64,000 nt of DNA, from assembly GCA_041660505.1 (NCBI GenBank), contig JBAZWG010000001.1, positions 243,979 through 307,978 on the forward strand, given 5' to 3'. Below, piece by piece: positions 6,184-63,466 of this stretch (positions within the stretch are counted from its first letter, which is position 1; each line of letters begins with the position of its first letter). The notes under the pieces were generated by a model. The model worked only from the letters and a program-made list of their open reading frames with translations, had not been told where the DNA came from and searched no databases. The position numbers and the translations under genes were made by a program. This DNA is from Minisyncoccota bacterium. GTDB taxonomy: Bacteria > Patescibacteriota > Minisyncoccia > Phycocordibacterales > JACRKE01.

Positions 6184-7155
6184 TTATGTGGCCTTAAGTA
6201 TATTCTGTAGCTTATGGGTATTCCCGTGCTGTAATAATCCCCGATAGGATTGCATTGTAGCAGGGTTATCTAGCCTTATCGCTATATTCCTGAACATCCG
6301 CTTCTTCGTCGCCGTTCGCAATACCTGATGATCGGGGAAATGCACCCACCCGAGGAAGTCTACGCCGGATGCGAGCGTGGCAATGGAGACCTTCTTCGGG
6401 TGTAAAGAAAGATTGAGTTGTGTATTCAAAAAATCAGAAATTTGCGGAATGAGTTGCTCGAGCCACGCCCTATTGTCAGAAAGAAAGACAAAATCGTCGG
6501 CATAGCGAATGTACTGCTTTACTTTGAGTTTGTGCTTAACATACTGATCGAACTCATTCATGTAGATGTTCACCAAGAGTTGCGAAGTGAGATTGCCGAG
6601 TGGCAAACCCGGTTCGAAGCTTGAAATTACTTTCTCGAGCAACCACTGAACGTTTTCGTCAGGAACATATTGCGCGAGTATCCCGAATAAAATTTTGTGG
6701 TCAATGTTTGCAAAGAACTTACGTATGTCGCATTTGAGCACCCAACAGGTATGAGTACAGTTCTTGGACGTTTCACTTCCAAATTTCTCAAACTGCTTCA
6801 GAGCGCGGTGAGTTCCCTTCCGTAGCCTGCACGAATACGAGTCAGAAATGAATGTTGAGTCAAAGAACGGATACAGCTTGCGATACACCGCGTGGCAAAG
6901 AAGTCTGTCGCGAACGTTGGCTTTGTGAATATCGCGAGGCTTTGGGTCGTTTATCTTGAAGTACGTATAACCGCCGTGAACATAGGTAAAGTTTTCAAGG
7001 TCTTGATGAAGGGAGAGTATGTTGCCCATGAGGCGAAGCTGGAAGACCTGAACATCAAGCTTATTTCTTTTTCCGGATAGAAACTCCTGCCAAGCGGCAA
7101 GCAGATTTTCAACGGAAATAATTTCTTCATACGACGTTGTAAATTGCTTTCTCAT
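6184..7155 (-). CDS. DGR reverse transcriptase
   Basis: A 323-aa RT with the YADD box (IRYADDFVFL). The motif GLPLGNLTSQLLVNIY carries the SQ signature of DGR RTs, not the QGxxxSP of group II intron RTs. The size is typical of DGR RTs. Confidence 0.85.
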   Translation of the reverse strand: MRKQFTTSYEEIISVENLLAAWQEFLSGKRNKLDVQVFQLRLMGNILSLHQDLENFTYVHGGYTYFKINDPKPRDIHKANVRDRLLCHAVYRKLYPFFDSTFISDSYSCRLRKGTHRALKQFEKFGSETSKNCTHTCWVLKCDIRKFFANIDHKILFGILAQYVPDENVQWLLEKVISSFEPGLPLGNLTSQLLVNIYMNEFDQYVKHKLKVKQYIRYADDFVFLSDNRAWLEQLIPQISDFLNTQLNLSLHPKKVSIATLASGVDFLGWVHFPDHQVLRTATKKRMFRNIAIRLDNPATMQSYRGLLQHGNTHKLQNILKAT

Positions 7156-7203
7156 GTGATAGTTGTATGGTCTTAAAAAATAAAAATCAAACTATGAAAA
7201 GTA

Positions 7204-7214
7204 CCCCCCCCCCC
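7204..7214 (+). repeat. C11 homopolymer at the 5' end of avd
   Basis: Eleven consecutive C at 7204-7214. A tract of 12 C would put ATG 7194 in frame with avd and give a protein of about 129 aa. Confidence 0.9.
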
Positions 7215-7249
7215 GAAACAACCTTACAATACTCGATCGGCTCGTTAGT

Positions 7250-7582
7250 GTGTATAAACTGTGGATAGTATCTTCCGAATCATTCCCAAAGAAACTCAAG
7301 TACACCTTAGGTGGCAAGATCGACGACCTGTTTCTCGAGTGTCTTGATCTGCTCTTCACCGCAAGCTTCCAACCGAAAGACCGAAAGCTTATTTATCTCG
7401 ACAAAGTATCGGTGCGTTTTGACTTGCTCAAATTTCTACTGCGAATAGCCTGGGAAATTGATGCACTAGAACAAAAGAAATATGTTCATATTTCTGAACT
7501 GCTCGTCGAAATCGGCAGAATGATCGGTGGTTGGATGAACAAGATAAAGAAAGAAACTCAACCCCCGCCGAAGCGAGGGTGA
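7250..7582 (+). CDS. avd: Avd-like accessory protein (four-helix-bundle / 23S rRNA-intervening-sequence protein family). As sequenced it starts at GTG 7250, and it probably starts at ATG 7194 if the C-tract has 12 C
   Basis: SESFPKKLKYTLGGKIDDLFLECLDLLFTA...YLDKVSVRFDLLKFLLRIAWEIDAL fits the four-helix-bundle consensus (FPKEEKYGLTSQLRRAAVSI...FL.IA.GSL.E). The frame is open upstream to 7184 with no ATG. The ATG at 7194 lies in another frame, and one extra C in the C11 tract would join it to this frame. Confidence 0.65.
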   Translation: MYKLWIVSSESFPKKLKYTLGGKIDDLFLECLDLLFTASFQPKDRKLIYLDKVSVRFDLLKFLLRIAWEIDALEQKKYVHISELLVEIGRMIGGWMNKIKKETQPPPKRG

Positions 7583-7593
7583 GAACGTCGAGA

Positions 7594-7696
7594 TTTGCGA
7601 CGGAACACGAACAGGTTGTTGTCGTTCCACTCGTTCGACACCGTGTTCAGGTTCGCCTTGCGACTGCCGTCATCGTTCTGCCATGCATACGACAAC
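7594..7696 (-). repeat. DGR template repeat (TR)
   Basis: A 103-bp direct repeat of 8109-8211. The two differ at 13 positions, and all 13 are T on the plus strand, which is A on the coding (minus) strand. It sits inside a degenerate, Asn-rich pseudo-copy of the target 3' end (spurious ORF 7558-7887). Confidence 0.85.
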
Positions 7697-8028
7697 AATG
7701 ACTCCAGTAGCGCGAGAATATGCAGGGTACCATCCATACCACCGCCCATCGAATACTCTCCGAGCTGAATCGTATATGGGATATAAAATCCACCAGTATC
7801 CTGCACCAAGTATCTTTCGTTTTTAGCTTTCCGCGGTGCGCACTTTCGTAAGGCAAATAAAATTTTTACCCGACGAAACTCCGGCACCGCGGCTTGCAGA
7901 ATTCGGCCGCTCGAAGCGTTGAGATAATCGTTGCCGCGAACAGATTCGCCTACTATCCGCTTCGGATCCTACCATATATTGATTATTTTAAAAATTTTTT
8001 GAAATTCCAGAGGTCCAGAAGCCAAGTT

Positions 8029-8058
8029 CCCCCGTTCCGACTCTGTCGTGAACGGGGG
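8029..8058 (-). terminator. GC-rich hairpin downstream of the VR/target stop (DGR-associated stem-loop and/or terminator)
   Basis: cccccgttccgac-tct-gtcgtgaacggggg forms a stem of about 13 bp with one bulged A and a 3-nt loop. It lies about 50-75 nt 3' of the target stop codon on the coding strand. Confidence 0.5.
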
Positions 8059-8105
8059 AATCCAAAGAACTAAGTCCAGTACCCAAGGGTTCATCGATCC
8101 GAGGG

Positions 8106-8843
8106 CTACTTGCGACGGAACACGAACAGGTAGTTGCCGAGCCACTCGTTCGACACCGTGTGCAGGTGCGCCTCGCGACCGCCGTCAGCGTGCTGCCATG
8201 CAAACGACAACCCACCGTCACACTCGCTCGCCGTGACGACCCCTACTGACTGATAGGGGAAGCCGAATTTGGCGAGCTGAGCAACAATGCTCGACACGCC
8301 GCCGATGATGGCGGCAGGAATGCGGCCGTGTGCGGGAACGAACTGGTCGCCCGCCCACTCGAGGGCTTTGGACGCTTTCGAGTAGATGCCCTTCCCGAAC
8401 CAGACGAGGTAGAACACCTCGATGGTCCTGCCGATCTTGGGCGAAACGTATTGCTCGCCAACGGTCAGGATCGGCCAAGTAAGGTCAGTCTGGGGACAGC
8501 AGGCAAGAATGAATTCGCGCCACGCTGTTGTCCAGTCGACGGGGAGGGTCAGGCGGAAAACCTTCCCGCCCTCGGGGGCCACAACGTCAGTCGCCTCTTC
8601 GATGACACCAAGCTTGAGGGCAATCTCGAGGCTAACCATCGTGGCCGTGCCGCGGATGACGCCGAGCAAATATTCGGCAACGTCCTTGGCCTGGGCTGCG
8701 GTCAGGGAGCAAAACTCCGCGACCGTGCCCTTGAGGGTGAAGAACGCCGTGGCGATGAGCCACAGCCCGTTTGCCATCTTGTTCCCGAGCGAGCGGTTTT
8801 CCCGCTTCGCCATTTCCGTCGCGGTCGCCACTTTCTTCTCCAT
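8106..8843 (-). CDS. DGR target (variable) protein, 245 aa, with the VR encoding the C-terminal roughly 34 residues
   Basis: Strong SD (AAGGAGG) 7 nt upstream of ATG 8843. The C-terminus ...GGLSFAWQHADGGREAHLHTVSNEWLGNYLFVFRRK is encoded by the VR. No obvious signal peptide. About 62% GC. Confidence 0.75.
   Translation of the reverse strand: MEKKVATATEMAKRENRSLGNKMANGLWLIATAFFTLKGTVAEFCSLTAAQAKDVAEYLLGVIRGTATMVSLEIALKLGVIEEATDVVAPEGGKVFRLTLPVDWTTAWREFILACCPQTDLTWPILTVGEQYVSPKIGRTIEVFYLVWFGKGIYSKASKALEWAGDQFVPAHGRIPAAIIGGVSSIVAQLAKFGFPYQSVGVVTASECDGGLSFAWQHADGGREAHLHTVSNEWLGNYLFVFRRK
8109..8211 (-). repeat. DGR variable repeat (VR) at the 3' end of the target gene
   Basis: Aligns to the TR with 90 of 103 identities. 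Every mismatch corresponds to a TR adenine on the coding strand. It is immediately followed by the target stop codon (TAG at 8106-8108). Confidence 0.85.
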
Positions 8844-53715: not shown

Positions 53716-55202
53716 ACCTCGGAAATTATTTCTAAATTCTTTTGTATCACATTCTCCCAAGTCTGCGAGTACGAAAGCTCTTTTACCCAATTTTGTGCTT
53801 GTTTATAGCCATTTTCTGACAGCAAGAAATTCAGCTTCTCTATGAATTCTCTTTCATTGCGCGGGTTGAAGAGCATATTTTCCGGCAGTGCGAACGGCAT
53901 GCCGTTCTCGCGGCTCATAAGTGTCGGCTTGCCGAAGGCGAAACCTTCCAGCACATAGTTCGGGTTAAATTCGGTCAGCGCCGGCGCAATTGTCAGCATG
54001 CACTTTTTTAAATATTCGTCTTTTTTTTCTCGAGACACAGTGCCCACCGCCTTAACGTTTCCGATAGCGATTTTAATTTCTTGCGGACCACTTCCCAAGA
54101 TGTACAACGTTGCATCGATATCAGAAAAAGCCTTGATTACGAATCCAAGATTTTTATACTCGACGAGCCTGCTCGCGAATATTACTGAACGTTCAGAATA
54201 TTGTATTGGAGAAATTTTTGTCGGAAGTGGGTTAGGAATCAAAATAATTTTTTTTGCAGGTATAGAGTAGTATTTCTCGCACACTTTCGCAAGCAACTGG
54301 CTGGGAACAATTACTTTTTTCGCATGTTGCAGTACGGACTTCGTTATGTTATAAAAACGAAAATTTGAATATTTTTCTGTTTCGTAAAATGTAATGCAGG
54401 ATTTGCTGATTAGCCCCTTTTCTGCACCTCGCTCCCAAACTATGTCGCCGCCCACGCGAATTATATATGGCTTGCGCAAAAGTCTGGCGACGTAGGCGGC
54501 TACTCCGGAAGAAACCGGATCCATCACATATATAATATTCGCGCCGATAGATTGCCGTGCAACAAAGAACGCAAAGACTAGATGCCGAAGCCCTGCCGGC
54601 AACCGAAGTAATTTAGAAAATATAACCAGCCGGACCTCGTGACCAACCCTCGTAAATTCTTGAACATATTTCTCGGCATGAGTTGACGGACCGCCAGCGT
54701 CTGGCGGGTATGATGGCGTGGCTATCACTATTACATATTTCCCAGCCGGATGAATATGTTTGAAAATGAAAAATTTGTTTATAGAATAGGTTACAACCGC
54801 AGTGGCCAGACCGATGATGATTTGTGATATAAGATAGTTTATATGTAGAAATTCGACGAAAACATACAGCGCGTAGGTATTGATCGCTAGGTTTATGAGA
54901 GCGACAGAAAAGTAGATAATGAGCTCGCGATGCGCGCCTTTGAGTGTGCGCTTACCGAATGTCCAAAACTTCTGCAGGAAGAAGCTTATCCAGAATGCGA
55001 TAATCCAAGCGATTATCGATGAGTATATATAATGTATGCCGAGAAAGTGGGTGAAGGCGAAAAGGAGCGCAATATCAGTCCAAGCCGACGTGCCACCAGC
55101 TATAATATACTTGATTACACGGCGGTGGGCGCGAGTATATTTATCTATTCTCGGGAATGTCTCCTCGAACAGACTTTTTAAACTTTCGTAATGTCTAAGC
55201 AT
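53703..55202 (-). CDS. GtrA-like membrane domain fused to a GT4 glycosyltransferase
   Basis: N-terminal 4-TM GtrA-like region (IIAGGTSAWTDIALLFAF...KFWTF). C-terminal GT4 fold. Confidence 0.6.
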   Translation of the reverse strand: MLRHYESLKSLFEETFPRIDKYTRAHRRVIKYIIAGGTSAWTDIALLFAFTHFLGIHYIYSSIIAWIIAFWISFFLQKFWTFGKRTLKGAHRELIIYFSVALINLAINTYALYVFVEFLHINYLISQIIIGLATAVVTYSINKFFIFKHIHPAGKYVIVIATPSYPPDAGGPSTHAEKYVQEFTRVGHEVRLVIFSKLLRLPAGLRHLVFAFFVARQSIGANIIYVMDPVSSGVAAYVARLLRKPYIIRVGGDIVWERGAEKGLISKSCITFYETEKYSNFRFYNITKSVLQHAKKVIVPSQLLAKVCEKYYSIPAKKIILIPNPLPTKISPIQYSERSVIFASRLVEYKNLGFVIKAFSDIDATLYILGSGPQEIKIAIGNVKAVGTVSREKKDEYLKKCMLTIAPALTEFNPNYVLEGFAFGKPTLMSRENGMPFALPENMLFNPRNEREFIEKLNFLLSENGYKQAQNWVKELSYSQTWENVIQKNLEIISEVCGS

Positions 55203-56307
55203 GAAGAGATTCGAACAAATTGCGCATACGCATCCCTACAGACTGCCACGAATAGCCTGATTTGACCAGCTCATAACCGCCTTTACTCACATGTTCATAC
55301 AGTGCAGGATTTTGAACCAAACGTGTGACTGCTTGGGCAAAATTTTCTGGACTTTCCGGCTCGCAGAAAATACCCGTCTCGCCGTCCTTAAGAAAATCCG
55401 GGATACCGCCAACAGGTGTGCCTATAATAGGCACACCTTGTGCCATCGCCTCAAGGAATGAACTACCGAGCCCTTCTGTGCGGGACGGCCGTACGAAAAT
55501 GTCACCTTGTTTAAGATATTCTATCGCCTGCTCATACGGTACTGCTTGATCTAACGTGACTCGTCCCGCCACATCAAGCTCTTTCGCAAGTTTAATTAGA
55601 TTCTCTCGTTCAGCCCCATCGCCAACATTCTTAAATATAATATTCTCCGGCAACACTTTAAGCGCGCGTATCACGATATCAAATCCATTCTTCTTCTCGA
55701 GTCTCGAATTGGAAATCAGAATTATCTCCTGTGGAGGTCCGACCTCCGAAAAATTCGGAGGTCGGACCTCCACAGGGACTTCAACCCCATTCGGCACCAC
55801 TATCGGCATCCCGCGGAAACCCATCTGCTTGCCGAAGCTCGCTAGATAATTTGATATCGCCTGAATAGCGTCGGCTTTTTCAAAAAGCAGACGGAAGAGC
55901 GGGCGCAGAATTCCTACACGCTTCATGATGTGTTCTATCGGATCGCCCTCCTGAAGCGTGAGTAAAAGTGGCGTACGCGAGAAAAATATTTTGTACAAAA
56001 GCGCAATCCCGCCAGAGTATCCGGCCATAATAGACCAGGAAAAATCATAAGGCTGTTTGAATGTAAGTCTTACTGCTTTTAGAAATCCTCCGACAATATA
56101 GCCATATTTTGTCGGCCAGGCGATTCTGTATATCGTTATATTATTTTTGGTCTCGATACTTTGCCACTCTGTATTAAATTTCCAAGTTATCACGTCGAAG
56201 TGAATGTCGGGATTGAGCTCCATGATTTTGCGCGGCGCAATCTCCCCTCCGCTTTCGAACGGATAAAATGCCAGGGAGAATATTATTACTCTTTTCTCTG
56301 AATTCAC
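55195..56307 (-). CDS. glycosyltransferase family 4
   Basis: GT4 C-terminal motif RPSRTEGLGSSFLEAMAQGVPIIGTPVGGIPDF. Confidence 0.75.
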   Translation of the reverse strand: MNSEKRVIIFSLAFYPFESGGEIAPRKIMELNPDIHFDVITWKFNTEWQSIETKNNITIYRIAWPTKYGYIVGGFLKAVRLTFKQPYDFSWSIMAGYSGGIALLYKIFFSRTPLLLTLQEGDPIEHIMKRVGILRPLFRLLFEKADAIQAISNYLASFGKQMGFRGMPIVVPNGVEVPVEVRPPNFSEVGPPQEIILISNSRLEKKNGFDIVIRALKVLPENIIFKNVGDGAERENLIKLAKELDVAGRVTLDQAVPYEQAIEYLKQGDIFVRPSRTEGLGSSFLEAMAQGVPIIGTPVGGIPDFLKDGETGIFCEPESPENFAQAVTRLVQNPALYEHVSKGGYELVKSGYSWQSVGMRMRNLFESLHA

Positions 56308-58370
56308 GGTCTTTTGGTATTCCCGAATCGCTGCCGTTTATCATCTTCGGTCACTTGGACCGTGCGGCGGAGGACATCCTCGGGTATCTCTTTTATAACC
56401 TGTTGGAGGGGTGCATTGGTTACTTGCTGTTTTGCCGGTTCTGGGGCTTGAATTATGACTTTTGGCGGTGTAGGTGGCGGAGGCGTGGGTATAACAGGTT
56501 GCGAGATAACAGGCTTGGGCACGAAAGGCGGAGTAACTGGTTTCGGTGGCATCGGCGTCGGAAGCGGTGTTACAACAGTGCGCTTAAGAACATCTTTTTC
56601 TAAAACGTTTTTGATCGTTTTCTGTAGTTCGCTCAAATTGCTCTCGCCTTTTTCTTCAAGCTTTTTTAATACCATCGGCTTGCTGGCCTCGGGAATTTTC
56701 GGTTCATCGGGTTCGACTTCCAGCCTTAGAGCGCTCGCCAGATCACTGCTTGCCCCGGCCTTCTGAATTTTCTTTTTTATTTCTTTTATACTGTCGAACT
56801 GCGTGCTCGCCCGCGCCATACGTTGCATGAGAGAGTCAGCCGGCCGTGGTATCGACTTGTTTGCTGACGACGCAGTAGAATATGCTTGCCTCTGACCGGG
56901 TTCAGCTTCAAACTCAATACCCAAGCTTGCTAGCCCAGAGATGCCATGATTGGTGGCAAGACTAGATGATATTGGTACTGTCTGATTTGTGGCGGGTTTG
57001 GACGATTCCGTGGGGTTCGTCGGCCGAACAGACGCGGGTGTGTCTGTTTTAGGCGCCGGTTCTGCTCCGGCGGGCATCATTCCACTCCAGTCATTAATCT
57101 CTCGTTCAACCACTTCTCGCGATCGGCAGTAGCGTTTGTGCGAAGCGTCGATAATCTCATCCGCCGTACAGACCTCACCTTCAGCCTTCGCCGGGGGCAA
57201 AGTGTAGGCAGAGAATGGCCGGCTGGTAACGCCGTCTATCATGAGGCGAGTGTAAATTTGGTAGTTCGGCAAGTTAACCATGTCGGGCGCGAGGAAGTCG
57301 GGGGTGAGTTCTTTCTCGAGGAACTCTGCGTCATCGGCACCGACGCGGAATATCACCATTGTACCGGCATTACCAAATACCGCATCGCGCACCTTGGTCG
57401 AGTTATCTTCGGCTAATTGCCCGATATATTGATGCGCGATAATAAGGTCGAGACGATATTTGCGCGCCTCGGAGAGAATATCGGCAAACGAGTCGGTCGC
57501 GAAATTCTGGAACTCATCTACATACAGATAGAAGTCTTCGCGATCTTTCTCTGGTATGCGCACGCGTTCCATTGCGGATAGTTGGATCTTGGTGATAAAC
57601 ATTGAACCAAGAAGGTCGGAGTTATCTTCGCCAATGCGCCCCTTCGATACGTTAAGCAAGATTATCTTGCGCTCATTCATCATGTCGTAGAGGTTGATAG
57701 TGCTCTTCTTCTGGCCGACTATATTTCTGACGAGAGAAGTAGACAAGAATTGCCCGACTTTATTCTGAATTGGCGCAATCGCCTCACTGCGGAACTTCTC
57801 TTGCCAGTTCTCGTATTCGTTAATCCAGAATGTCAGCACCACCGGGTCTTTAATATTCGCCACAATCCTCTGACGATAATTTTTGTCTACCAAAAGTCGC
57901 GGAATGCCGAGTAGCGTCGAACCCGGCGTATCGAGAAGCGCCAAGACGCAGTTGTTCATTATATATTCCATTCTCGCCGACCAGACGTTAGCCCAGATCT
58001 TCGTGAAGATTCCCATAAGACCTGATGCGATTAAATGTTTCTTCTCCGGATCGTCGAGCTCGAGCACGTTGAAGCCGGTGTGGAAGGCCGGATCGGCCGG
58101 ATTAATGTAGACAACATCATTCAAGCGATGTTTGGGAATTTGGGCGAGCAAGCCCTCCACGAATTCTCCGTGCGGGTCGACGACGCAAAGCCCCGCGCCA
58201 TTGCGAATGTCTTGGACGGCCAAATTATTTAAAAGCACCGTCTTGCCGGTACCCGACTTGCCGATAATATAAAAATGCTGTCGGCGGTCTTTGTGTTTAA
58301 TACCGAAACGCACGCGCTTGTCGCGATGATTAGTCTCGGCGAAATAGGTTACTCGATTGTCCTCTAGCAT
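56304..58370 (-). CDS. soluble VirD4/TrwB/TraD-like (type IV coupling protein-like) P-loop ATPase with a Pro-rich C-terminal tail
   Basis: Walker A HFYIIGKSGTGKTVLL followed by VVDPHGEF (compare TrwB GATGTGKS...VDPNGD). Walker B FYLYVDEFQNF and a downstream AHQ motif. No N-terminal TM segment. The start is set at ATG 58370, and the listed ORF starts at GTG 58430 inside the palindrome. Confidence 0.6.
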   Translation of the reverse strand: MLEDNRVTYFAETNHRDKRVRFGIKHKDRRQHFYIIGKSGTGKTVLLNNLAVQDIRNGAGLCVVDPHGEFVEGLLAQIPKHRLNDVVYINPADPAFHTGFNVLELDDPEKKHLIASGLMGIFTKIWANVWSARMEYIMNNCVLALLDTPGSTLLGIPRLLVDKNYRQRIVANIKDPVVLTFWINEYENWQEKFRSEAIAPIQNKVGQFLSTSLVRNIVGQKKSTINLYDMMNERKIILLNVSKGRIGEDNSDLLGSMFITKIQLSAMERVRIPEKDREDFYLYVDEFQNFATDSFADILSEARKYRLDLIIAHQYIGQLAEDNSTKVRDAVFGNAGTMVIFRVGADDAEFLEKELTPDFLAPDMVNLPNYQIYTRLMIDGVTSRPFSAYTLPPAKAEGEVCTADEIIDASHKRYCRSREVVEREINDWSGMMPAGAEPAPKTDTPASVRPTNPTESSKPATNQTVPISSSLATNHGISGLASLGIEFEAEPGQRQAYSTASSANKSIPRPADSLMQRMARASTQFDSIKEIKKKIQKAGASSDLASALRLEVEPDEPKIPEASKPMVLKKLEEKGESNLSELQKTIKNVLEKDVLKRTVVTPLPTPMPPKPVTPPFVPKPVISQPVIPTPPPPTPPKVIIQAPEPAKQQVTNAPLQQVIKEIPEDVLRRTVQVTEDDKRQRFGNTKRP

Positions 58371-58416
58371 GAGTATAATTCTAGCATAAAATCGTGAATG
58401 CTTGTATAATATTGCC

Positions 58417-58430
58417 GTGCATATATGCAC
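58417..58430. promoter_or_regulatory. perfect 14-bp palindrome GTGCATATATGCAC between divergent paralogous ATPase genes (candidate operator), flanked by TATAAT-like -10 boxes
   Basis: The sequence is its own reverse complement. TGTATAAT lies at about 58403-58410 on the plus strand, and TATAAT-like hexamers on the minus strand at about 58436-58450. Confidence 0.5.
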
Positions 58431-59930
58431 AGATATTATCAGATATTATATTGTATGGAAGTTGGGAAAATTCAAAAGATACGTTATACCCCGCCACCGG
58501 CCGAGCTTGCTACGCCCGATAATACCGAGCTCCAAAATTTGACCTGCCTCGGCAAAACGAATTACGTCGTGGCGATGGACGACCGGCGCTATATCTTTGG
58601 CATCAAGCGTATGGACCGCACGCGCCATATGTACGTCATCGGCAAGTCCGGCGTCGGTAAGTCTAAACTCTTGGAAATCATGATCCGCCAAGATATCGCC
58701 CACGGCGACGGCCTCTGCCTTATGGACCCGCACGGCGATGTCATCGAGGACGTGCTTGAGTTCATTCCGGAAGACCGTATAGACGATGTTGTCATCATCG
58801 ACCCATCAGATACCGCCTTCCCGGCATCATTCAACCCATTAGTCGGCGTTGAGGCCGATCTCAAACATCAGCTCGCTCAAGGTCTTATCGAGGTGATGCA
58901 AAAACAGTTCGGTGCCAACTGGACACCGCGCTTAGAGCACGTCTTCCGCTTCACCGTTCTTGCTCTCCTCGACTATCCGTACGCCACGATGCGCGGGATG
59001 CTTATGATGCTAACCGACCGCAACTACCGCCAGAAGGTGGTCGAGTATATTCAGCATGATGTGGTGAAAAGATTCTGGGCAATCGAATTCGCCGACTGGT
59101 CGGAGAAGTTCGATACCGATGCCATCATTCCGCTAGTCAATAAGCTTGGACAGTTTCTTTCAAATCCGCTCCTCGGTAATATCTTCGGCCAGCAGAAGAA
59201 CTTAATCGACTTCGAAGCGCTGATGAACAGCAAGAAATTAATTTTCATCAACTTGTCCAAGGGCCGCTTGGGTGAAGAAAACTCTTCGTTCTTCGGCTCA
59301 ATGCTCATCACCAAGATCAAGCAAGCCGGTATGGCGCGCGCCAAGATGTCTCGCTCGGCCCGCCAAGACTTCTACTTATATGTAGACGAGTTCCAGACCG
59401 TCGTCACCGACACTTTTGAAAATATCTTATCAGAGTCTCGTAAATATGGACTTTGTCTTATTGTCGCGCACCAGTACGTCGCCCAACTCTCGCCCAAAAT
59501 CCAGCAAGCGGTGCGCGGTAACTCCGGCACAATAGTCACCTTCCGCGTCGGCGGTGATGATGCCGAGTCGCTCAAGGCCGAGATGGCCCCGCTCATCGAG
59601 CCGAAGGACCTCATCAACTTGGGCCTCCGCGAGTTCTATATCAAGATGACCATCGACGGCGAGACCTACGACCCGTTCTCGGCTGAAACTTTGAAAGTTT
59701 TGCCCCCGCTTCACGAGTCGTATAAAGACCGCATCATCGCCGCCTCGCGCTCAAAATACAATATCCCGGTAGAGCTTGCCGAGCAATTAGTCCGCGAAGA
59801 AGACGAGAATTTGAAGATGAATAAAGGCCCATCGAACAACGGCGCCGGCGCGACCACTACGGCAACCCTCACCTCATCACCAGCGCAAGCCCCAGGCACG
59901 GGCGACAGCTCTCCCGAACCGCTTATATAA
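58425..59930 (+). CDS. soluble VirD4/TrwB/TraD-like P-loop ATPase (paralog of the gene at 56304-58370)
   Basis: Walker A HMYVIGKSGVGKSKLL followed by LMDPHGDV, Walker B FYLYVDEFQTV and the AHQ motif. Alternative start at ATG 58455 (MEVGKIQ). Confidence 0.6.
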   Translation: MHRYYQILYCMEVGKIQKIRYTPPPAELATPDNTELQNLTCLGKTNYVVAMDDRRYIFGIKRMDRTRHMYVIGKSGVGKSKLLEIMIRQDIAHGDGLCLMDPHGDVIEDVLEFIPEDRIDDVVIIDPSDTAFPASFNPLVGVEADLKHQLAQGLIEVMQKQFGANWTPRLEHVFRFTVLALLDYPYATMRGMLMMLTDRNYRQKVVEYIQHDVVKRFWAIEFADWSEKFDTDAIIPLVNKLGQFLSNPLLGNIFGQQKNLIDFEALMNSKKLIFINLSKGRLGEENSSFFGSMLITKIKQAGMARAKMSRSARQDFYLYVDEFQTVVTDTFENILSESRKYGLCLIVAHQYVAQLSPKIQQAVRGNSGTIVTFRVGGDDAESLKAEMAPLIEPKDLINLGLREFYIKMTIDGETYDPFSAETLKVLPPLHESYKDRIIAASRSKYNIPVELAEQLVREEDENLKMNKGPSNNGAGATTTATLTSSPAQAPGTGDSSPEPLI

Positions 59931-59986: not shown

Positions 59987-61723
59987 ATGCCCAGCAAAAC
60001 CCCCAAATTCGATTCTGCGCTTGATGCCATTTTCGCCACCTTGGCGCCTCACGAACGCGTTTGCAAACAGTGTAATCTTTCGTTCCAAATAGAGGCCGAG
60101 GATATCGAATTTTTGAAGAAATTAAGAGTCCCGCCACCGACTCTCTGCCCGCGGTGCAGGCTACAGCGACGTATGGCATCACGCATACGGTTGCGCCCGG
60201 TGTTTTATAAAAAATCATGTGCAGCGCCCGGCCACAGCGAGAAGATAGTTTCATTTCTTGATGAAGATAATCCTGTGCCAGTCTATGATGATGCATATTA
60301 TCGGAGCGATGCTTGGGACCCGTTCAGTTTCGCCACCACCTACGATGCGAGCGTGCCGTTCTTTAAAAAGTTCGCCGAATTCGCCGCCAACTTCCCCCAT
60401 CAGACTGCCAACAAGGATGTCCAAAGTATCAACTGCGACTTCGTTGTTTCGGGCGTACAGGCCAAGAATTGCTACTACGTCGCCGTGCCGTACCTTTCGG
60501 AAAATTTACAATATGGCCACCTCGGGGTGAACTCAAAAGATTGCCTCGAATTCTTGAGTATTGATAGTGTGGAAAATTCCTACCATTCGGTGCGCGGCCT
60601 TCGTTCCTATAACTGCCTCTTCTGCGTTGACTCTGCTGACTGCGTTGATTCATCATTCTTGTTCGACTGTAAAAATTGCATGAACTGCTTTATGAGCAGC
60701 AATCTCCGCAATGCTAAATATGTTTGGAAGAATGAACAGTTGAGCAAAGAGGTATACGAAAAAAGGCTTTTGGACGTTGATCTCGGCAGTTATACAGTAC
60801 TGGAGACATATCGCCGAAAGTTCGAAGAACTGTGCAAAAAAGCGATTCACAAGAATCTGGATATTTTGAAATCGGAAAATTGCGTCGGTAACAATCTGCG
60901 CAATTGCAAAAATTGCATCAACACATATGAATGTTTCGGGGGCGGAGAAAATATCAAAAACGTTATGAGCTCGCTCAAAGTCACGGATTCACTAGATACT
61001 TACGGCAGTACAGACACATCCCTCGCCTATGATTGTGCCGGGACCCCTGTTTGTATTAAATGTAAATTTTCTTTGCTTATCCGCACTGGCCTCGAGGTGG
61101 AATATTCGGTTGAATGCATTAACGTGGAATTCTGTTTTGCCTGTTTCGGTCTGCGAGGAAAAAAGTTCTGTATTTTCAACAAACAATACGATGAAAATGA
61201 GTATTGGGAGAAAGTCGACGCGATTAAAACAGCGATGCTTGCTCGCGGCGAATATGGCGAGTTCTTCTCTATTGCCGACAGCCCATTCCCATACAATGAC
61301 AGTGATGCACAGCTCGAATTCCCTCTTACAAGAGATGAAGTATCGGCGCGAGGCTGGAAGTGGCACGATAAAAAAGAAAATCCTGTTGACCTTTCAGGGT
61401 TGAACGTCATCAAAGCCGCCGACCTGCCGGACAATATACGAGATGTTACCGATGACATTCTGCACAAGGCAGTCTTGTGCATGGAGACCGGCCGGCCGTT
61501 CCGCCTTACGCCGTACGAGCTTGCCTTCTACCGCCAGCACAATCTTCCGCTTCCGCGTCTTCATCCCGACGTGCGCATCAATAAGCTTTTCGAATTCCGT
61601 ATCCCCTATCACCTCTATACAGACACCTGTAAAAAGTGCGGCAAATCAATCCAATCTGGCTATGATCCGGATAAAGGATATACTGTCTACTGCGAACAGT
61701 GTTATCAGCAAGAAGTTGTTTAA
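59987..61723 (+). CDS. Cys-rich protein with N- and C-terminal zinc ribbons and internal CxxCxxC repeats (family unknown)
   Basis: 578 aa. N-terminal CKQCN...PPPTLCPRCR. Internal CKNCMNCF, CKNCINTYEC and CIKCKF motifs. C-terminal CKKCGK...YCEQCYQQEVV. Confidence 0.5.
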   Translation: MPSKTPKFDSALDAIFATLAPHERVCKQCNLSFQIEAEDIEFLKKLRVPPPTLCPRCRLQRRMASRIRLRPVFYKKSCAAPGHSEKIVSFLDEDNPVPVYDDAYYRSDAWDPFSFATTYDASVPFFKKFAEFAANFPHQTANKDVQSINCDFVVSGVQAKNCYYVAVPYLSENLQYGHLGVNSKDCLEFLSIDSVENSYHSVRGLRSYNCLFCVDSADCVDSSFLFDCKNCMNCFMSSNLRNAKYVWKNEQLSKEVYEKRLLDVDLGSYTVLETYRRKFEELCKKAIHKNLDILKSENCVGNNLRNCKNCINTYECFGGGENIKNVMSSLKVTDSLDTYGSTDTSLAYDCAGTPVCIKCKFSLLIRTGLEVEYSVECINVEFCFACFGLRGKKFCIFNKQYDENEYWEKVDAIKTAMLARGEYGEFFSIADSPFPYNDSDAQLEFPLTRDEVSARGWKWHDKKENPVDLSGLNVIKAADLPDNIRDVTDDILHKAVLCMETGRPFRLTPYELAFYRQHNLPLPRLHPDVRINKLFEFRIPYHLYTDTCKKCGKSIQSGYDPDKGYTVYCEQCYQQEVV

Positions 61724-61756
61724 ATAGAGAGTTCAACTCTCTATTATAAGGCTAAA

Positions 61757-63466
61757 ATGGAAACTAGAACCTGCCAGAATTGTAACGAGAACTTCGTCAT
61801 CGAGCCGGAAGACTTTGAGTTTTACGAAAAAATAAAAGTTCCGCCCCCGACTTGGTGCCCGGAGTGCCGGCGGTGGCGGCGCATGTTCTTTCAGAACGAG
61901 CGCGGGATTCGTAAAACTTCATGTGCGCTTTGCGGCCAAACGACACTCTCAATGTTCAACGACAAAGTACCGCATGTTGCCTACTGCCATAGCTGCTGGT
62001 GGGGAGATAAATGGGATGCGCTAAACTTCGGTCGTGATTACGACGACAAGGTTTCTTTTTGGAATCAATTTTTTGAACTCTTCCGCACCACGCCAACTCC
62101 GGCGGTGAGTAACGAAAATCCAATCAACAGTGACTACGTCAATCACACCTCTAACGCCAAAAACTGTTATCTGATTTTCTTTTCTGGCACACCACTACCC
62201 AATGAAGACTGCTACTACTCTTATCGCATAGACGGTTGCCGGGGCTGTATCGACACGGCTTATACCACCCAGAGCGAAGACTGTTACGAATTGATGGACG
62301 GCACCAAGTGTAATAAGGTGCAATTCGGGAGATATGTCGAAGAAACTTTCGACAGCATGTTCCTGGACGACTGCAAGAACTGTTCCGACTGCTTCGGCTG
62401 TTCCAAATTAAGAAACAGGAATCACTGCATATATAATGAGCAATACAGCAAGGCGGATTATGAACGCGAGCGCAGTAAGATAGATTTGGGCAGTTATGCC
62501 AATTTAGAAAATTTTAAAATGGCTTTCGCCGAGTTTAATGCTAAAACGCCCAAGCGCTTCGCCAATATAATTAAATCCGAAAATTGTACCGGCGACAACA
62601 TAACCGGCTGCAAAAATTGCAGGGATTGTTATGTCATAAAAAATTCAGAGGATTCCCGCTTCGCCGAGATGTGCCCAGGCGGAGTACGCGATTGTTACGA
62701 TCTCCGCATTGCCCGTGGCGAACAGCTTTATGAAGACTTCGCGGTACTCCGGTCATCAAATGTCTACTTCAGTGTGATCTGTCTAGACAGTAAGAATGTC
62801 CAGTATTCTTATTTTATGATTAACTGTTCAGATTGTTTCGGCTGTGTCGGACTAAAGAATAAGCAATTCTGTATCTTGAATAAGCAATATGCCGAAGAAG
62901 AATATCGCTCATTGTTGCCGAGAATCATCGCCAACATGAACGGTTTGCCCTATACTGGCAAAAACGGCGCAGTATATAAATATGGTGAATTCTTCCCTCT
63001 CGATGAAAGCCCCTATCTATATTACGACACCCCGGCGAACGAAGTTTTGCCTTTATCAAAAGAAGAGGTTATCTTGCGCGGTTTAAATCTGGACGATGAG
63101 CTCTCGCGGAATTATAAAGTAACGGTGGCAAAGGGTAATATCCCCGACCACATTCGCGATGTCCCCGACTCTATCACTAACGAAATTCTAGAGTGCGCTC
63201 ACAAGGGTCAATGTCTGCACAGGTGCGCCACCGCCTTCCGCATCACCCCGTTCGAATTGGCTTATTATAAAAAATTCAATCTCGCTCTGCCCACAATTTG
63301 CAGTAACTGCCGCCACTACGAGAGAATTAAATCAAGAAACCCTTTAAAGCTCTGGCACAGAAAGTGTATGAATGTTGGATGTCAAAACGAGTTTGAAACG
63401 TCATATTCTCCCGACCGCCCGGAGATTATCTATTGTGAATCTTGTTATCAACAAGAAGTAGTATAA
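61757..63466 (+). CDS. Cys-rich protein, tandem paralog of the gene at 59987-61723
   Basis: 569 aa. N-terminal CQNCN...PPPTWCPECR. Internal CKNCSDCFGC, CKNCRDCY and CSDCFGCVGLKN motifs. C-terminal CSNCRHY...YCESCYQQEVV. Confidence 0.5.
   Translation: METRTCQNCNENFVIEPEDFEFYEKIKVPPPTWCPECRRWRRMFFQNERGIRKTSCALCGQTTLSMFNDKVPHVAYCHSCWWGDKWDALNFGRDYDDKVSFWNQFFELFRTTPTPAVSNENPINSDYVNHTSNAKNCYLIFFSGTPLPNEDCYYSYRIDGCRGCIDTAYTTQSEDCYELMDGTKCNKVQFGRYVEETFDSMFLDDCKNCSDCFGCSKLRNRNHCIYNEQYSKADYERERSKIDLGSYANLENFKMAFAEFNAKTPKRFANIIKSENCTGDNITGCKNCRDCYVIKNSEDSRFAEMCPGGVRDCYDLRIARGEQLYEDFAVLRSSNVYFSVICLDSKNVQYSYFMINCSDCFGCVGLKNKQFCILNKQYAEEEYRSLLPRIIANMNGLPYTGKNGAVYKYGEFFPLDESPYLYYDTPANEVLPLSKEEVILRGLNLDDELSRNYKVTVAKGNIPDHIRDVPDSITNEILECAHKGQCLHRCATAFRITPFELAYYKKFNLALPTICSNCRHYERIKSRNPLKLWHRKCMNVGCQNEFETSYSPDRPEIIYCESCYQQEVV

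What the first reader, a model, noticed from the sequence alone, without database searches (positions are those of the whole stretch)
56304..59930. Divergent paralogous soluble T4CP-like ATPases sharing a palindromic operator
Two VirD4/TrwB-like P-loop ATPases are transcribed divergently from an 84-bp region. They carry Walker A (GKSGTGKT and GKSGVGKS) followed by VDPHGE, Walker B YLYVDEFQ and the AHQ motif, and neither has TM helices. The intergenic region holds a perfect 14-bp palindrome GTGCATATATGCAC (58417-58430) that overlaps both putative promoters. This implies shared autoregulation or a dedicated repressor. No other T4SS components are present in the window. These may serve a non-canonical translocation or DNA-uptake function. 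The first paralog carries a long Pro/Thr-rich C-terminal tail (PLPTPMPPKPVTPPFVPKPVISQPVIPTPPPPTPP).
Basis: partly seen in the sequence, partly recalled or inferred. Interest (0 to 1): 0.55.

Follow-up and report, generated by a model that had tools for sequence, protein, structure and literature searches.

The report
TMD-less coupling-protein ATPase pair, Patescibacteria
Two related VirD4/TrwB-type motor ATPases without membrane anchors sit back to back in a Paceibacterota (CPR) genome; the pair occurs across this bacterial group, the 'shared operator' palindrome is a strain-specific insertion, and the conserved partners are the cysteine-rich zinc proteins encoded just downstream.

Summary
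The sequence observation holds. Two 43%-identical P-loop ATPases (P1 56304-58370 minus strand, P2 58455-59930 plus strand) are divergent across 84 bp. They have no hydrophobic segment, and a perfect 14-bp palindrome lies at 58417-58430. Family assignment also holds: Pfam, a PDB profile search and Foldseek all place them nearest TrwB/VirD4 coupling proteins, ahead of HerA, with no FtsK signal.

The operator idea is not supported. The palindrome lies in a 24-30-nt insertion that is absent from the two closest relatives with the same divergent layout. It sits downstream of the conserved P2 -10 box. Palindromes of this size occur at chance frequency in the window. The divergent layout is itself lineage-specific: in 26 of 27 related species with both genes in view, they are co-directional.

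What is conserved is a module. P2 is followed on the same strand by 1-5 paralogous ~575-aa cysteine-rich zinc-ribbon proteins (here 59987-63466, no known fold) in 53 of 68 species. Two small membrane proteins usually lie upstream but are absent from this window. Most P1 orthologues carry a zinc finger that this lineage has lost.

Published work already counts about two such homologues per Patescibacteria genome, with function unknown. I consider this a new variant of a known kind, of moderate interest.

The parts
56304..58370 (-). P1: TMD-less VirD4/TrwB-type ATPase paralogue, 688 aa. ATPase plus all-alpha domain covers about residues 1-440 (57051-58370). Disordered tail covers residues 441-688 (56307-57050).
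   Evidence: Pfam TrwB_AAD_bind 4.4e-13, TraG-D_C 1.7e-7, DUF87 1.6e-8. Orthologues are about 70% identical across Paceibacteria. Motif coordinates. No hydrophobic segment.
56307..57050 (-). P1 C-terminal tail. A low-complexity Pro/Lys/Ser/Thr linker with conserved short motifs: LGIEF (56910-56924), NLSEL (56625-56639), IPEDVLRR (56364-56387). It lacks the CxxC-x17-CxxC zinc finger found in most orthologues.
   Evidence: About three quarters of the 120 best P1 homologues carry PF23477. P0255 and P0284 score 3.8e-15 and 2.5e-13. Tail sequences compared; composition.
58371..58454 (.). 84-bp divergent intergenic region, 29% G+C.
   Evidence: Alignment with relatives.
58378..58383 (-). Conserved -10-like box for P1. 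It reads TAGAAT on the minus strand, is preceded by TGc, and ends 7 nt before the ATG, so the transcript is possibly leaderless.
   Evidence: Invariant block ATAATTCTAGCATA in the window, L082, L086 and L087. Promoter function is inferred.
58405..58410 (+). Conserved -10-like box TATAAT for P2 (GAATGCTTGTATAAT).
   Evidence: Conserved in the window, L082 and L087. Promoter function is inferred.
58417..58430 (.). Perfect 14-bp palindrome GTGCATATATGCAC, lineage-specific.
   Evidence: Absent from L082 and L087 and from the loci of all other organisms; the single match among 179 loci, L001, is this same organism. Chance statistics. The RNA fold of the 5' region is not unusual, z = -0.5.
58430..58449 (+). 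Tandem direct repeat CAGATATTAT x2. It is part of the same insertion and supplies two TATTAT -10-like boxes, the second 5 nt before the P2 ATG.
   Evidence: The promoter scan finds TTGCCG-16-TATTAT at 58412-58439.
58455..59930 (+). P2: TMD-less VirD4/TrwB-type ATPase paralogue, 491 aa, with a short disordered tail ending in the conserved PEPLI (59913-59927).
   Evidence: Pfam TrwB_AAD_bind 3.8e-10. NCBIfam conju_CD1115 1.3e-11 nearly full length. AF2 model pLDDT 78; Foldseek top hit TrwB at 6e-10. 65-72% identity across Paceibacteria. PEPLI conservation.
59987..61723 (+). [not shown]
   Evidence: The only Pfam or NCBIfam hit is the C-terminal CxxC-x17-CxxC finger, just under threshold. AF2 pLDDT 85, pTM 0.88. 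No structural match in the PDB or BFVD. Synteny.
61757..63466 (+). [not shown]
   Evidence: Tandem arrays of 1-5 or more copies in related loci.
55195..56307 (-). GT4 glycosyltransferase. Its start overlaps the P1 stop by 4 bp. It is context only: in this lineage P1 heads a glycan-biosynthesis operon.
   Evidence: The same order is seen in L082, L086 and L087.

Best explanation
**What it is (high confidence, about 0.85).** P1 and P2 are the two conserved paralogues of a chromosomal VirD4/TrwB-type coupling-protein ATPase that lacks a transmembrane domain. Nearly all Patescibacteria carry this family. The window comes from a Candidatus Paceibacterota genome.

The divergent layout is a recent inversion seen only in this small lineage. 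The palindrome is part of a 24-30-nt insertion in the P2 leader and is not a conserved operator. Each gene keeps its own conserved -10 box, so the two are probably expressed constitutively from back-to-back promoters.

**How it works (inferred, about 0.35).** The ATPases form RecA-type rings. Partner membrane proteins bring them to the membrane. In most relatives these are a 2-TM ~460-aa protein and a 1-TM ~175-aa protein encoded just upstream of P2; in this genome they lie outside the window. This parallels the TMD-less coupling protein TraJ of pIP501, which works with a small membrane protein.

**Shown:** family and fold, absence of a TMD, synteny, and non-conservation of the palindrome.
**Inferred:** oligomeric state, membrane recruitment, and the client relationship with Z.
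For: **Family**
- TrwB_AAD_bind is the best Pfam hit for both, above the curated cut-off, together with TraG-D_C and T4SS-DNA_transf.
- Best NCBIfam hits are conjugative TraD and the CD1115 VirD4-like family, which aligns nearly full length with P2.
- The family profile hits only TrwB among PDB sequences, 1.5e-6.
- The AF2 model has an all-helical insertion at residues 134-258, between the Walker A and Walker B segments.
- Foldseek ranks TrwB first (6e-10, TM up to 0.55), with Cagbeta (TMq 0.53) and DotL. HerA scores TM 0.35-0.43. FtsK is absent from the top 50.

**Distribution**
- More than 7,800 homologues, 65-72% identical across Paceibacteria orders.
- PMC12102498 reports 5,713 VirD4-type homologues in 2,918 of 3,035 Patescibacteria genomes. 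[quoted passage not shown]
- PMC10633639 states that the essential Saccharibacteria T4SS lacks a recognisable coupling protein.
- TMD-less coupling proteins with a small membrane partner are a recognised subfamily (PMC7434980).

**Module**
- Among 80 species-level loci, 53 of the 68 with at least 3 kb downstream have 1-5 Z genes after P2. All 128 Z genes are on the same strand as P2.
- P1 is in the flank in 27 loci: 26 co-directional, 1 opposite.
- The 2-TM protein lies within 2.6 kb upstream in 43 of 70 loci.
- Starting from Z genes instead, 17 of 34 long metagenome loci hold P1 or P2 within 8 kb. The 2-TM/ATPase/Z trio persists in lineages where the ATPase is only 42-49% identical.
- P1 orthologues carry a CxxC-x17-CxxC finger (PF23477, 3.8e-15) of the type found, at sub-threshold score, at the Z C-terminus.

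**Palindrome:**
Against: - No T4SS gene lies within 64 kb, and the literature reports that these homologues are rarely near virB4.
- The Saccharibacteria homologue was not essential although the T4SS was (PMC12102498). Two redundant paralogues could explain that.
- About 70% identity across orders is unusually high for coupling proteins and would also fit a housekeeping role.
- Z proteins are large, zinc-bound and of fixed length, which is atypical for secreted cargo. Half of the Z loci have no ATPase nearby.
- The membrane partners are not in this window, so membrane recruitment is untested for this genome.
- Foldseek E-values for HerA are close to those for TrwB.
- A strain-specific regulator binding the palindrome cannot be excluded.
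Confidence: 0.6

Rival explanations
1. T4SS-independent machine. P1 and P2 are cytoplasmic or membrane-associated translocases that have been exapted. With the Z proteins and the zinc finger they act on nucleic acid (DNA uptake, segregation, RNA handling) or remodel proteins, as a core housekeeping function of Paceibacteria.
For: - No TMD.
- Not linked to virB4 (window scans).
- About 70% identity across orders, and conserved synteny with secD/secF and a sigma70_r4/HARE-HTH gene rather than mobile-element genes.
- The P1 orthologue finger is of the CxxC-x17-CxxC type.
- PMC12102498 itself says exaptation cannot be ruled out.
Against: - No nucleic-acid-processing gene (relaxase, nuclease, recombinase, ComEC) is in the conserved module.
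- All closest characterised relatives are secretion coupling proteins.
- The Patescibacterial T4SS otherwise lacks a coupling ATPase.
- The window lineage lost the finger yet keeps the gene under strong conservation.
Confidence: 0.3
2. The palindrome is an operator shared by both promoters, giving joint autoregulation or control by a dedicated repressor.
For: - A perfect 14-bp palindrome in an 84-bp region has a chance probability of about 1.3%.
- It lies between a -35-like TTGCCG and a TATTAT box.
- It is the only one of the six palindromes of this size in the window that falls between genes.
Against: - Absent from L082 (P2 88% identical) and L087 (P1 75% identical), which keep the divergent layout and the flanking promoter blocks.
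- Absent from the loci of every other organism: the only match among 179 loci, L001, is this same organism.
- About 35 bp from the P1 -10 box, so it does not overlap both promoters.
- Neither ATPase has a DNA-binding regulator domain.
- No regulator gene is adjacent.
- The divergent layout itself is not ancestral.
Confidence: 0.08
3. Defence or conflict ATPases: HerA-like or MADS mad8-like components of an anti-phage system, with Z proteins as effectors.
For: - PADLOC mad8 hits at 1.6e-13 and 4.9e-13, plus weak HerA hits.
- Foldseek hits to HerA-Sir2 and HerA-DUF4297 complexes.
- Z genes form variable tandem arrays.
Against: - The mad8 score is no better than the TrwB score.
- The genes are near-universal, vertically conserved and syntenic with housekeeping genes, unlike defence islands.
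- Z proteins hit no PADLOC model.
- No nuclease, Sir2 or methylase partner is present.
Confidence: 0.04

Closest known systems
TrwB (R388) / VirD4 type IV coupling proteins
   Same: RecA-type nucleotide-binding domain with Walker A and B motifs. An all-alpha domain is inserted in it. The TraG-D_C region is present. These are the best sequence and fold matches.
   Different: - No N-terminal transmembrane domain.
- Chromosomal, duplicated into two conserved paralogues.
- Not next to virB4, a relaxase or oriT-type genes.
- About 14-18% identity to TrwB in structural alignments.
- Long disordered tails with their own motifs or a zinc finger.
TMD-less coupling proteins of Gram-positive MPF_FATA systems (TraJ of pIP501 with membrane protein TraI; CD1115 family of CTn2)
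   Same: - No TMD.
- P2 aligns over nearly the whole CD1115 profile.
- In most relatives small membrane proteins are encoded immediately upstream, as TraI is for TraJ.
- Patescibacterial VirB4 is nested in MPF_FATA (PMC12102498).
   Different: - Those proteins are encoded inside conjugative T4SS operons; P1 and P2 are not.
- NCBIfam scores are far below the equivalog cut-off (44 against 250 bits).
- The upstream membrane proteins have no detectable similarity to any Pfam or PDB entry and are absent from this window.
HerA / FtsK-SpoIIIE translocases
   Same: The same ASCE P-loop superfamily. There are weak DUF87 hits, and HerA appears among the Foldseek hits.
   Different: - DUF87 scores are lower than TrwB_AAD_bind.
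- TM-scores are lower (0.35-0.43).
- No NurA partner.
- No FtsK_SpoIIIE Pfam hit at E <= 0.1, and FtsK is not among the top 50 folds.
Xanthomonas X-T4SS effectors with a shared VirD4-interacting C-terminal domain (XVIPCD). This analogy is recalled from my own knowledge and was not tested.
   Same: A family of otherwise divergent proteins shares a conserved C-terminal module and is handled by a VirD4-type ATPase. This is the model for reading the Z arrays as clients.
   Different: The Z C-terminus is a zinc ribbon, not an XVIPCD. No interaction or secretion data exist. Z proteins have a fixed length and architecture.

Membership tests
Type IV coupling protein (VirD4/TrwB/TraG/TraD) | P-loop nucleotide-binding domain with Walker A and Walker B | tested here: met
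   GKSGTGKT / GKSGVGKS and YLYVDEFQ in both proteins. Pfam TrwB_AAD_bind, T4SS-DNA_transf and TraG-D_C are above their cut-offs.
Type IV coupling protein (VirD4/TrwB/TraG/TraD) | All-alpha domain inserted in the nucleotide-binding domain | tested here: met
   The AF2 model of P2 has a helical insertion at residues 134-258. The TrwB_AAD_bind alignment spans residues 55-356. Best folds are TrwB, Cagbeta and DotL. This is a prediction, not a solved structure.
Type IV coupling protein (VirD4/TrwB/TraG/TraD) | N-terminal transmembrane domain | tested here: not met
   Maximum 19-residue hydropathy is 1.1-1.2. Orthologues are 480-500 aa with no N-terminal extension. A TMD-less subfamily is recognised (PMC7434980).
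Type IV coupling protein (VirD4/TrwB/TraG/TraD) | Encoded with, or functionally tied to, a T4SS (virB4) and/or a relaxase | tested here: not met
   No T4SS or relaxase hit in the 40 other ORFs scanned across the 64-kb window. None in the conserved neighbourhood of 80 related loci. The literature reports only 148 of 5,713 near virB4. A functional tie at a distance is not testable here.
Type IV coupling protein (VirD4/TrwB/TraG/TraD) | Hexameric ATPase that binds substrate or DNA and couples it to the channel | not testable with these tools
   Needs biochemistry or genetics.
TMD-less two-partner coupling protein (TraJ/TraI of pIP501 type) | Soluble ATPase plus an adjacent small membrane protein | tested here: inconclusive
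   A 2-TM protein lies upstream of P2 in 43 of 70 related loci and a 1-TM protein in 39 of 70. Neither is in this window. Homology to TraI could not be tested.
HerA helicase | HerA central domain as the best match, HAS barrel, NurA or other nuclease partner | tested here: not met
   DUF87 scores 35 and 24 bits against TrwB_AAD_bind at 49 and 40 bits. NCBIfam helicase_HerA scores 13 bits against a cut-off of 970. TM-scores are lower. No nuclease neighbour.
FtsK/SpoIIIE | FtsK_SpoIIIE motor domain and gamma domain | tested here: not met
   No FtsK_SpoIIIE hit at E <= 0.1. No FtsK chain among the top 50 Foldseek matches or in the PDB profile search.
Operator shared by divergent promoters | Palindrome conserved in orthologous intergenic regions and overlapping the core promoter elements of both genes | tested here: not met
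   Absent from L082 and L087 although the flanking -10 blocks are conserved. It lies 7 bp downstream of the P2 TATAAT box and about 35 bp from the P1 box. It is not enriched over chance in the window.

The most novel reading that the evidence does not exclude
P1 and P2, together with the upstream 2-TM and 1-TM proteins, are the missing coupling machinery of the essential Patescibacterial type IV secretion system. The tandem, fast-diverging Z proteins would then be its first identifiable cargo family: zinc-binding effectors delivered into host cells and recognised through their conserved zinc-ribbon end. About 2,100 Z clusters at 50% identity score E <= 1e-30, and the fold has no relative in the PDB or BFVD.
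Probability: 0.25. Interest if true: 0.8.

Novelty: new variant of a known kind. Interest (0 to 1): 0.42.

Why it matters
Patescibacteria are a large share of uncultured bacterial diversity and live attached to host cells. Their type IV secretion system is essential for that lifestyle in the one genetically tractable species, but its substrates and coupling ATPase are unknown.

Published surveys counted about two VirD4-type homologues per genome, far from virB4, and left their role open. This analysis adds three things:
- The homologues form two strongly conserved paralogue families without membrane anchors.
- They are syntenic with small membrane proteins.
- They are syntenic with arrays of a large, uncharacterised cysteine-rich protein family.

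That gives concrete candidates for interaction and secretion tests. For the finding as submitted, the main result is negative: the palindrome is not a conserved regulatory element.

Tried and rejected
- **Palindrome as regulon marker.** I searched the window at up to 2 mismatches and all 179 fetched loci. The only other copy is in the same organism's own contig.
- **5' hairpin or riboswitch-like leader.** The RNA fold z-score is -0.5, and there is no Rfam hit anywhere in the window.
- **HerA/FtsK assignment.** Rejected on Pfam, NCBIfam, PDB profile and fold ranking.
- **Defence-system assignment.** The only real PADLOC hit is mad8, no better than TrwB, and the Z proteins hit nothing.
- **Function of Z proteins by homology.**
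  - Pfam and NCBIfam find only a sub-threshold terminal zinc finger.
  - Foldseek against the PDB and BFVD gives nothing below E 0.05.
- **Function of the upstream 2-TM protein.** No Pfam hit and no PDB sequence hit. It could not be submitted for structure prediction because it is not encoded in the window.
- **Mobile-element origin.** G+C of the ATPase genes is only slightly above the window mean. There are no tRNA genes. Relatives in IMG/VR contigs are distant (25-49% identity) and lack Z and the 2-TM protein. I did not examine them further.
- **Literature.** No paper in the library links TrwB with Parcubacteria, or describes the paralogue pair or the zinc-protein arrays.
Full report
**1. 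Observation**

The region holds two long ORFs on opposite strands. The longest-ORF starts (GTG 58430, ATG 58425) fall inside the intergenic palindrome. Orthologues begin at MLEDNR... and MEVGKIQ..., and the database proteins are 688 and 491 aa. The real genes are therefore P1 = 56304-58370 (minus strand) and P2 = 58455-59930 (plus strand), separated by 84 bp.

The two proteins are 43% identical over 471 residues. Neither protein has a hydrophobic stretch. The maximum 19-residue hydropathy is 1.2 and 1.1, against 2.7 for real membrane proteins from related loci.

GTGCATATATGCAC is at 58417-58430 and is unique in the window. The window comes from a Candidatus Paceibacterota MAG, on a 719-kb contig.

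**2. Family**

Sequence evidence:
- Pfam ranks TrwB_AAD_bind first for both proteins (49 and 40 bits; cut-off 20.5). TraG-D_C and T4SS-DNA_transf are also above cut-off. The HerA central domain scores lower.
- NCBIfam's best hits are conjugative TraD families and the CD1115 VirD4-like family of the Clostridioides element CTn2. CD1115 aligns with P2 over residues 52-370. All scores are far below the equivalog cut-offs.
- A profile of 38 family members hits only TrwB among all PDB sequences, at 1.5e-6.

Structural evidence:
- The AlphaFold model of P2 has pLDDT 78 and pTM 0.79. It shows a RecA-like core with an all-helical insertion at residues 134-258.
- Foldseek ranks TrwB first (6e-10, TM up to 0.55), with Cagbeta and DotL.
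- HerA has similar E-values but lower TM-scores. VirB4 follows. FtsK is not in the top 50.

These are VirD4/TrwB-type proteins that lack the usual N-terminal membrane domain. A TMD-less subfamily is already recognised: TraJ of pIP501, which works with the small membrane protein TraI (PMC7434980).

**3. The palindrome and the divergent layout**

Only the nearest relatives keep the divergent layout:
- L082 and L084: P2 88% identical, 54-bp spacer.
- L087: P1 75% identical, 60-bp spacer.

Alignment of these spacers shows a conserved core, ATAATTCTAGCATAAAA...GAATGCTTGTATAAT. I read it as two back-to-back -10 boxes:
- TGcTAGAAT on the minus strand, ending 7 nt before the P1 ATG.
- TATAAT at 58405-58410 for P2.

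The window then carries 24-30 extra nucleotides that the relatives lack. These are the palindrome plus a tandem CAGATATTAT x2. L087 has only a half-site (GTGCAATAAC) and L082 has GTGAATAAT.

Other relatives:
- In L086 (P1 83% identical), similarity breaks off right after GAATGCTTGTA.
- In L085 (P2 90% identical), other genes lie upstream.
- Among 80 species-level loci, the P1 orthologue is in the flank of P2 in 27: 26 on the same strand and one convergent.

Further evidence against an operator:
- The exact palindrome occurs in no other fetched locus except the same organism's own contig.
- Perfect palindromes of 14 bp or more number 6 in the window against 4.9 +/- 2.2 expected.
- The leader does not fold unusually, z = -0.5.

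The palindrome is real but lineage-specific, lies in the P2 leader or promoter spacer, and is about 35 bp from the P1 -10 box. A strain-specific regulator cannot be excluded. The chance of such a palindrome in that 84-bp stretch is about 1.3%. Nothing else supports a shared operator.

**4. What is conserved instead**

Clustering of all ORFs in the 85 loci held at that stage, followed by gene-order strings and Pfam, gives a typical Paceibacteria order:

secD - secF - sigma70_r4/HARE-HTH protein - 2-TM protein (~460 aa, no Pfam or PDB match) - 1-TM protein (~175 aa) - P2 - [cutA] - one to five tandem 'Z' genes - often P1.

Counts anchored on P2:
- 53 of 68 loci with at least 3 kb downstream have Z genes after P2.
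- All 128 Z genes are on the same strand as P2.
- The 2-TM gene lies within 2.6 kb upstream in 43 of 70 loci.

Counts anchored on Z genes in metagenomes:
- 17 of 34 loci of at least 12 kb contain P1 or P2 within 8 kb. A rough expectation for two genes in a genome under 1 Mb is a few percent.
- Arrays reach six copies.
- The 2-TM/ATPase/Z trio recurs where the ATPase is only 42-49% identical (L133, L149, L153).

In this lineage P1 instead heads a glycosyltransferase operon with 4-bp overlaps. The same order is seen in L082, L086 and L087.

**5. The Z proteins**

- The only family hit is the C-terminal CxxC-x17-CxxC finger (PF23477 / TIGR04272), just below threshold.
- The AlphaFold model is confident (pLDDT 85, pTM 0.88). 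It has no match in the PDB (best E 3.5) or BFVD (best 0.05, zinc ribbons only).
- The family is large: 5,225 clusters at 50% identity at E <= 0.001 and 2,139 at E <= 1e-30. Almost all are 545-600 aa.
- All named members are Paceibacteria-type CPR.

**6. The tails**

About three quarters of the 120 best P1 homologues carry PF23477 after the ATPase domain. P0255 scores 3.8e-15 and P0284 scores 2.5e-13.

The window's P1 and its closest relatives (P0242-P0245) have lost the finger. They keep the motifs LGIEF, NLSEL and (E/D)IPE(E/D)VLR(R/K), which flank a variable proline-rich linker. The 'Pro/Thr-rich tail' is therefore a linker, not a special domain.

P2 orthologues end in a conserved PEPLI after a disordered stretch.

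**7. Literature**

- PMC12102498 reports 5,713 VirD4-type homologues in 2,918 of 3,035 Patescibacteria genomes, about two per genome, and VirB4 in 2,417 genomes. Only 148 of the homologues lie near virB4. [quoted passage not shown]
- PMC10633639 notes that the essential Saccharibacteria T4SS lacks recognisable coupling and relaxase proteins.
- I found no paper in the library describing the two paralogue families, their lack of a TMD, or the link to the Z arrays or the 2-TM protein.
- My own inference: the 80% (VirB4) and 96% (coupling-protein) genome frequencies are what about 80% MAG completeness would give for one and two universal genes. They do not separate the models.

**8. Mechanism**

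Shown:
- Family and fold.
- Absence of a TMD.
- Phylum-wide conservation.
- Synteny with the Z arrays and the membrane proteins.
- Non-conservation of the palindrome.

Inferred:
- Ring-forming ATPases are docked to the membrane by the 2-TM and 1-TM proteins, as TraJ is thought to be by TraI.
- They act on the co-transcribed Z proteins, as cargo or adaptors for the Patescibacterial T4SS.

I put this at about 0.35. A T4SS-independent translocase or remodeller working with the Z proteins is about 0.3. A shared operator is below 0.1, and a defence system below 0.05.

**9. Verdict**

The ATPase pair is one more instance of an already counted but uncharacterised Patescibacterial gene family. The undescribed part is the conserved module with a novel-fold zinc-protein family. 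I rate it a new variant of a known kind, interest about 0.4.

Noticed in passing
window 6184-8843 (minus strand): A diversity-generating retroelement. The reverse transcriptase (RVT_1, 1.8e-23) is at 6184-7155. A 102-nt template repeat is at 7595-7696 and a variable repeat at 8110-8211, at the 3' end of ORF 8106-8843. All 11 mismatches fall on adenines of the template copy.
   Followed up: partly
[not shown]
   Followed up: yes
L002-L081, e.g. L017 4076-5467 and L067 5440-5964: Two conserved membrane proteins lie immediately upstream of P2 in most Paceibacteria. One has 2 TM segments (~460 aa, C-terminal motif ESRKxGPPAGL) and one has 1 TM segment (~175 aa). Neither has a Pfam or PDB match, and neither is in this window.
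   Followed up: partly
[not shown]
   Followed up: no
window about 10600-56307: About 46 kb is almost entirely cell-surface glycan biosynthesis. It includes GT1, GT2, GT4, GT9 and GT47 transferases, Wzy_C, three PMT_2 proteins, DegT, epimerases, UDP-glucose dehydrogenase, GtrA fusions and FAD oxidoreductases. In this lineage P1 is the first gene of its last operon.
   Followed up: partly
L168-L179 (IMG/VR contigs): Twelve contigs classed as viral encode relatives of P1/P2 at 25-49% identity. They have no Z or 2-TM neighbours. Their context was not examined.
   Followed up: no
window 59913-59927; alignment A1: P2 orthologues end in a conserved PEPLI peptide after a disordered linker. This may be a docking motif.
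   Followed up: no
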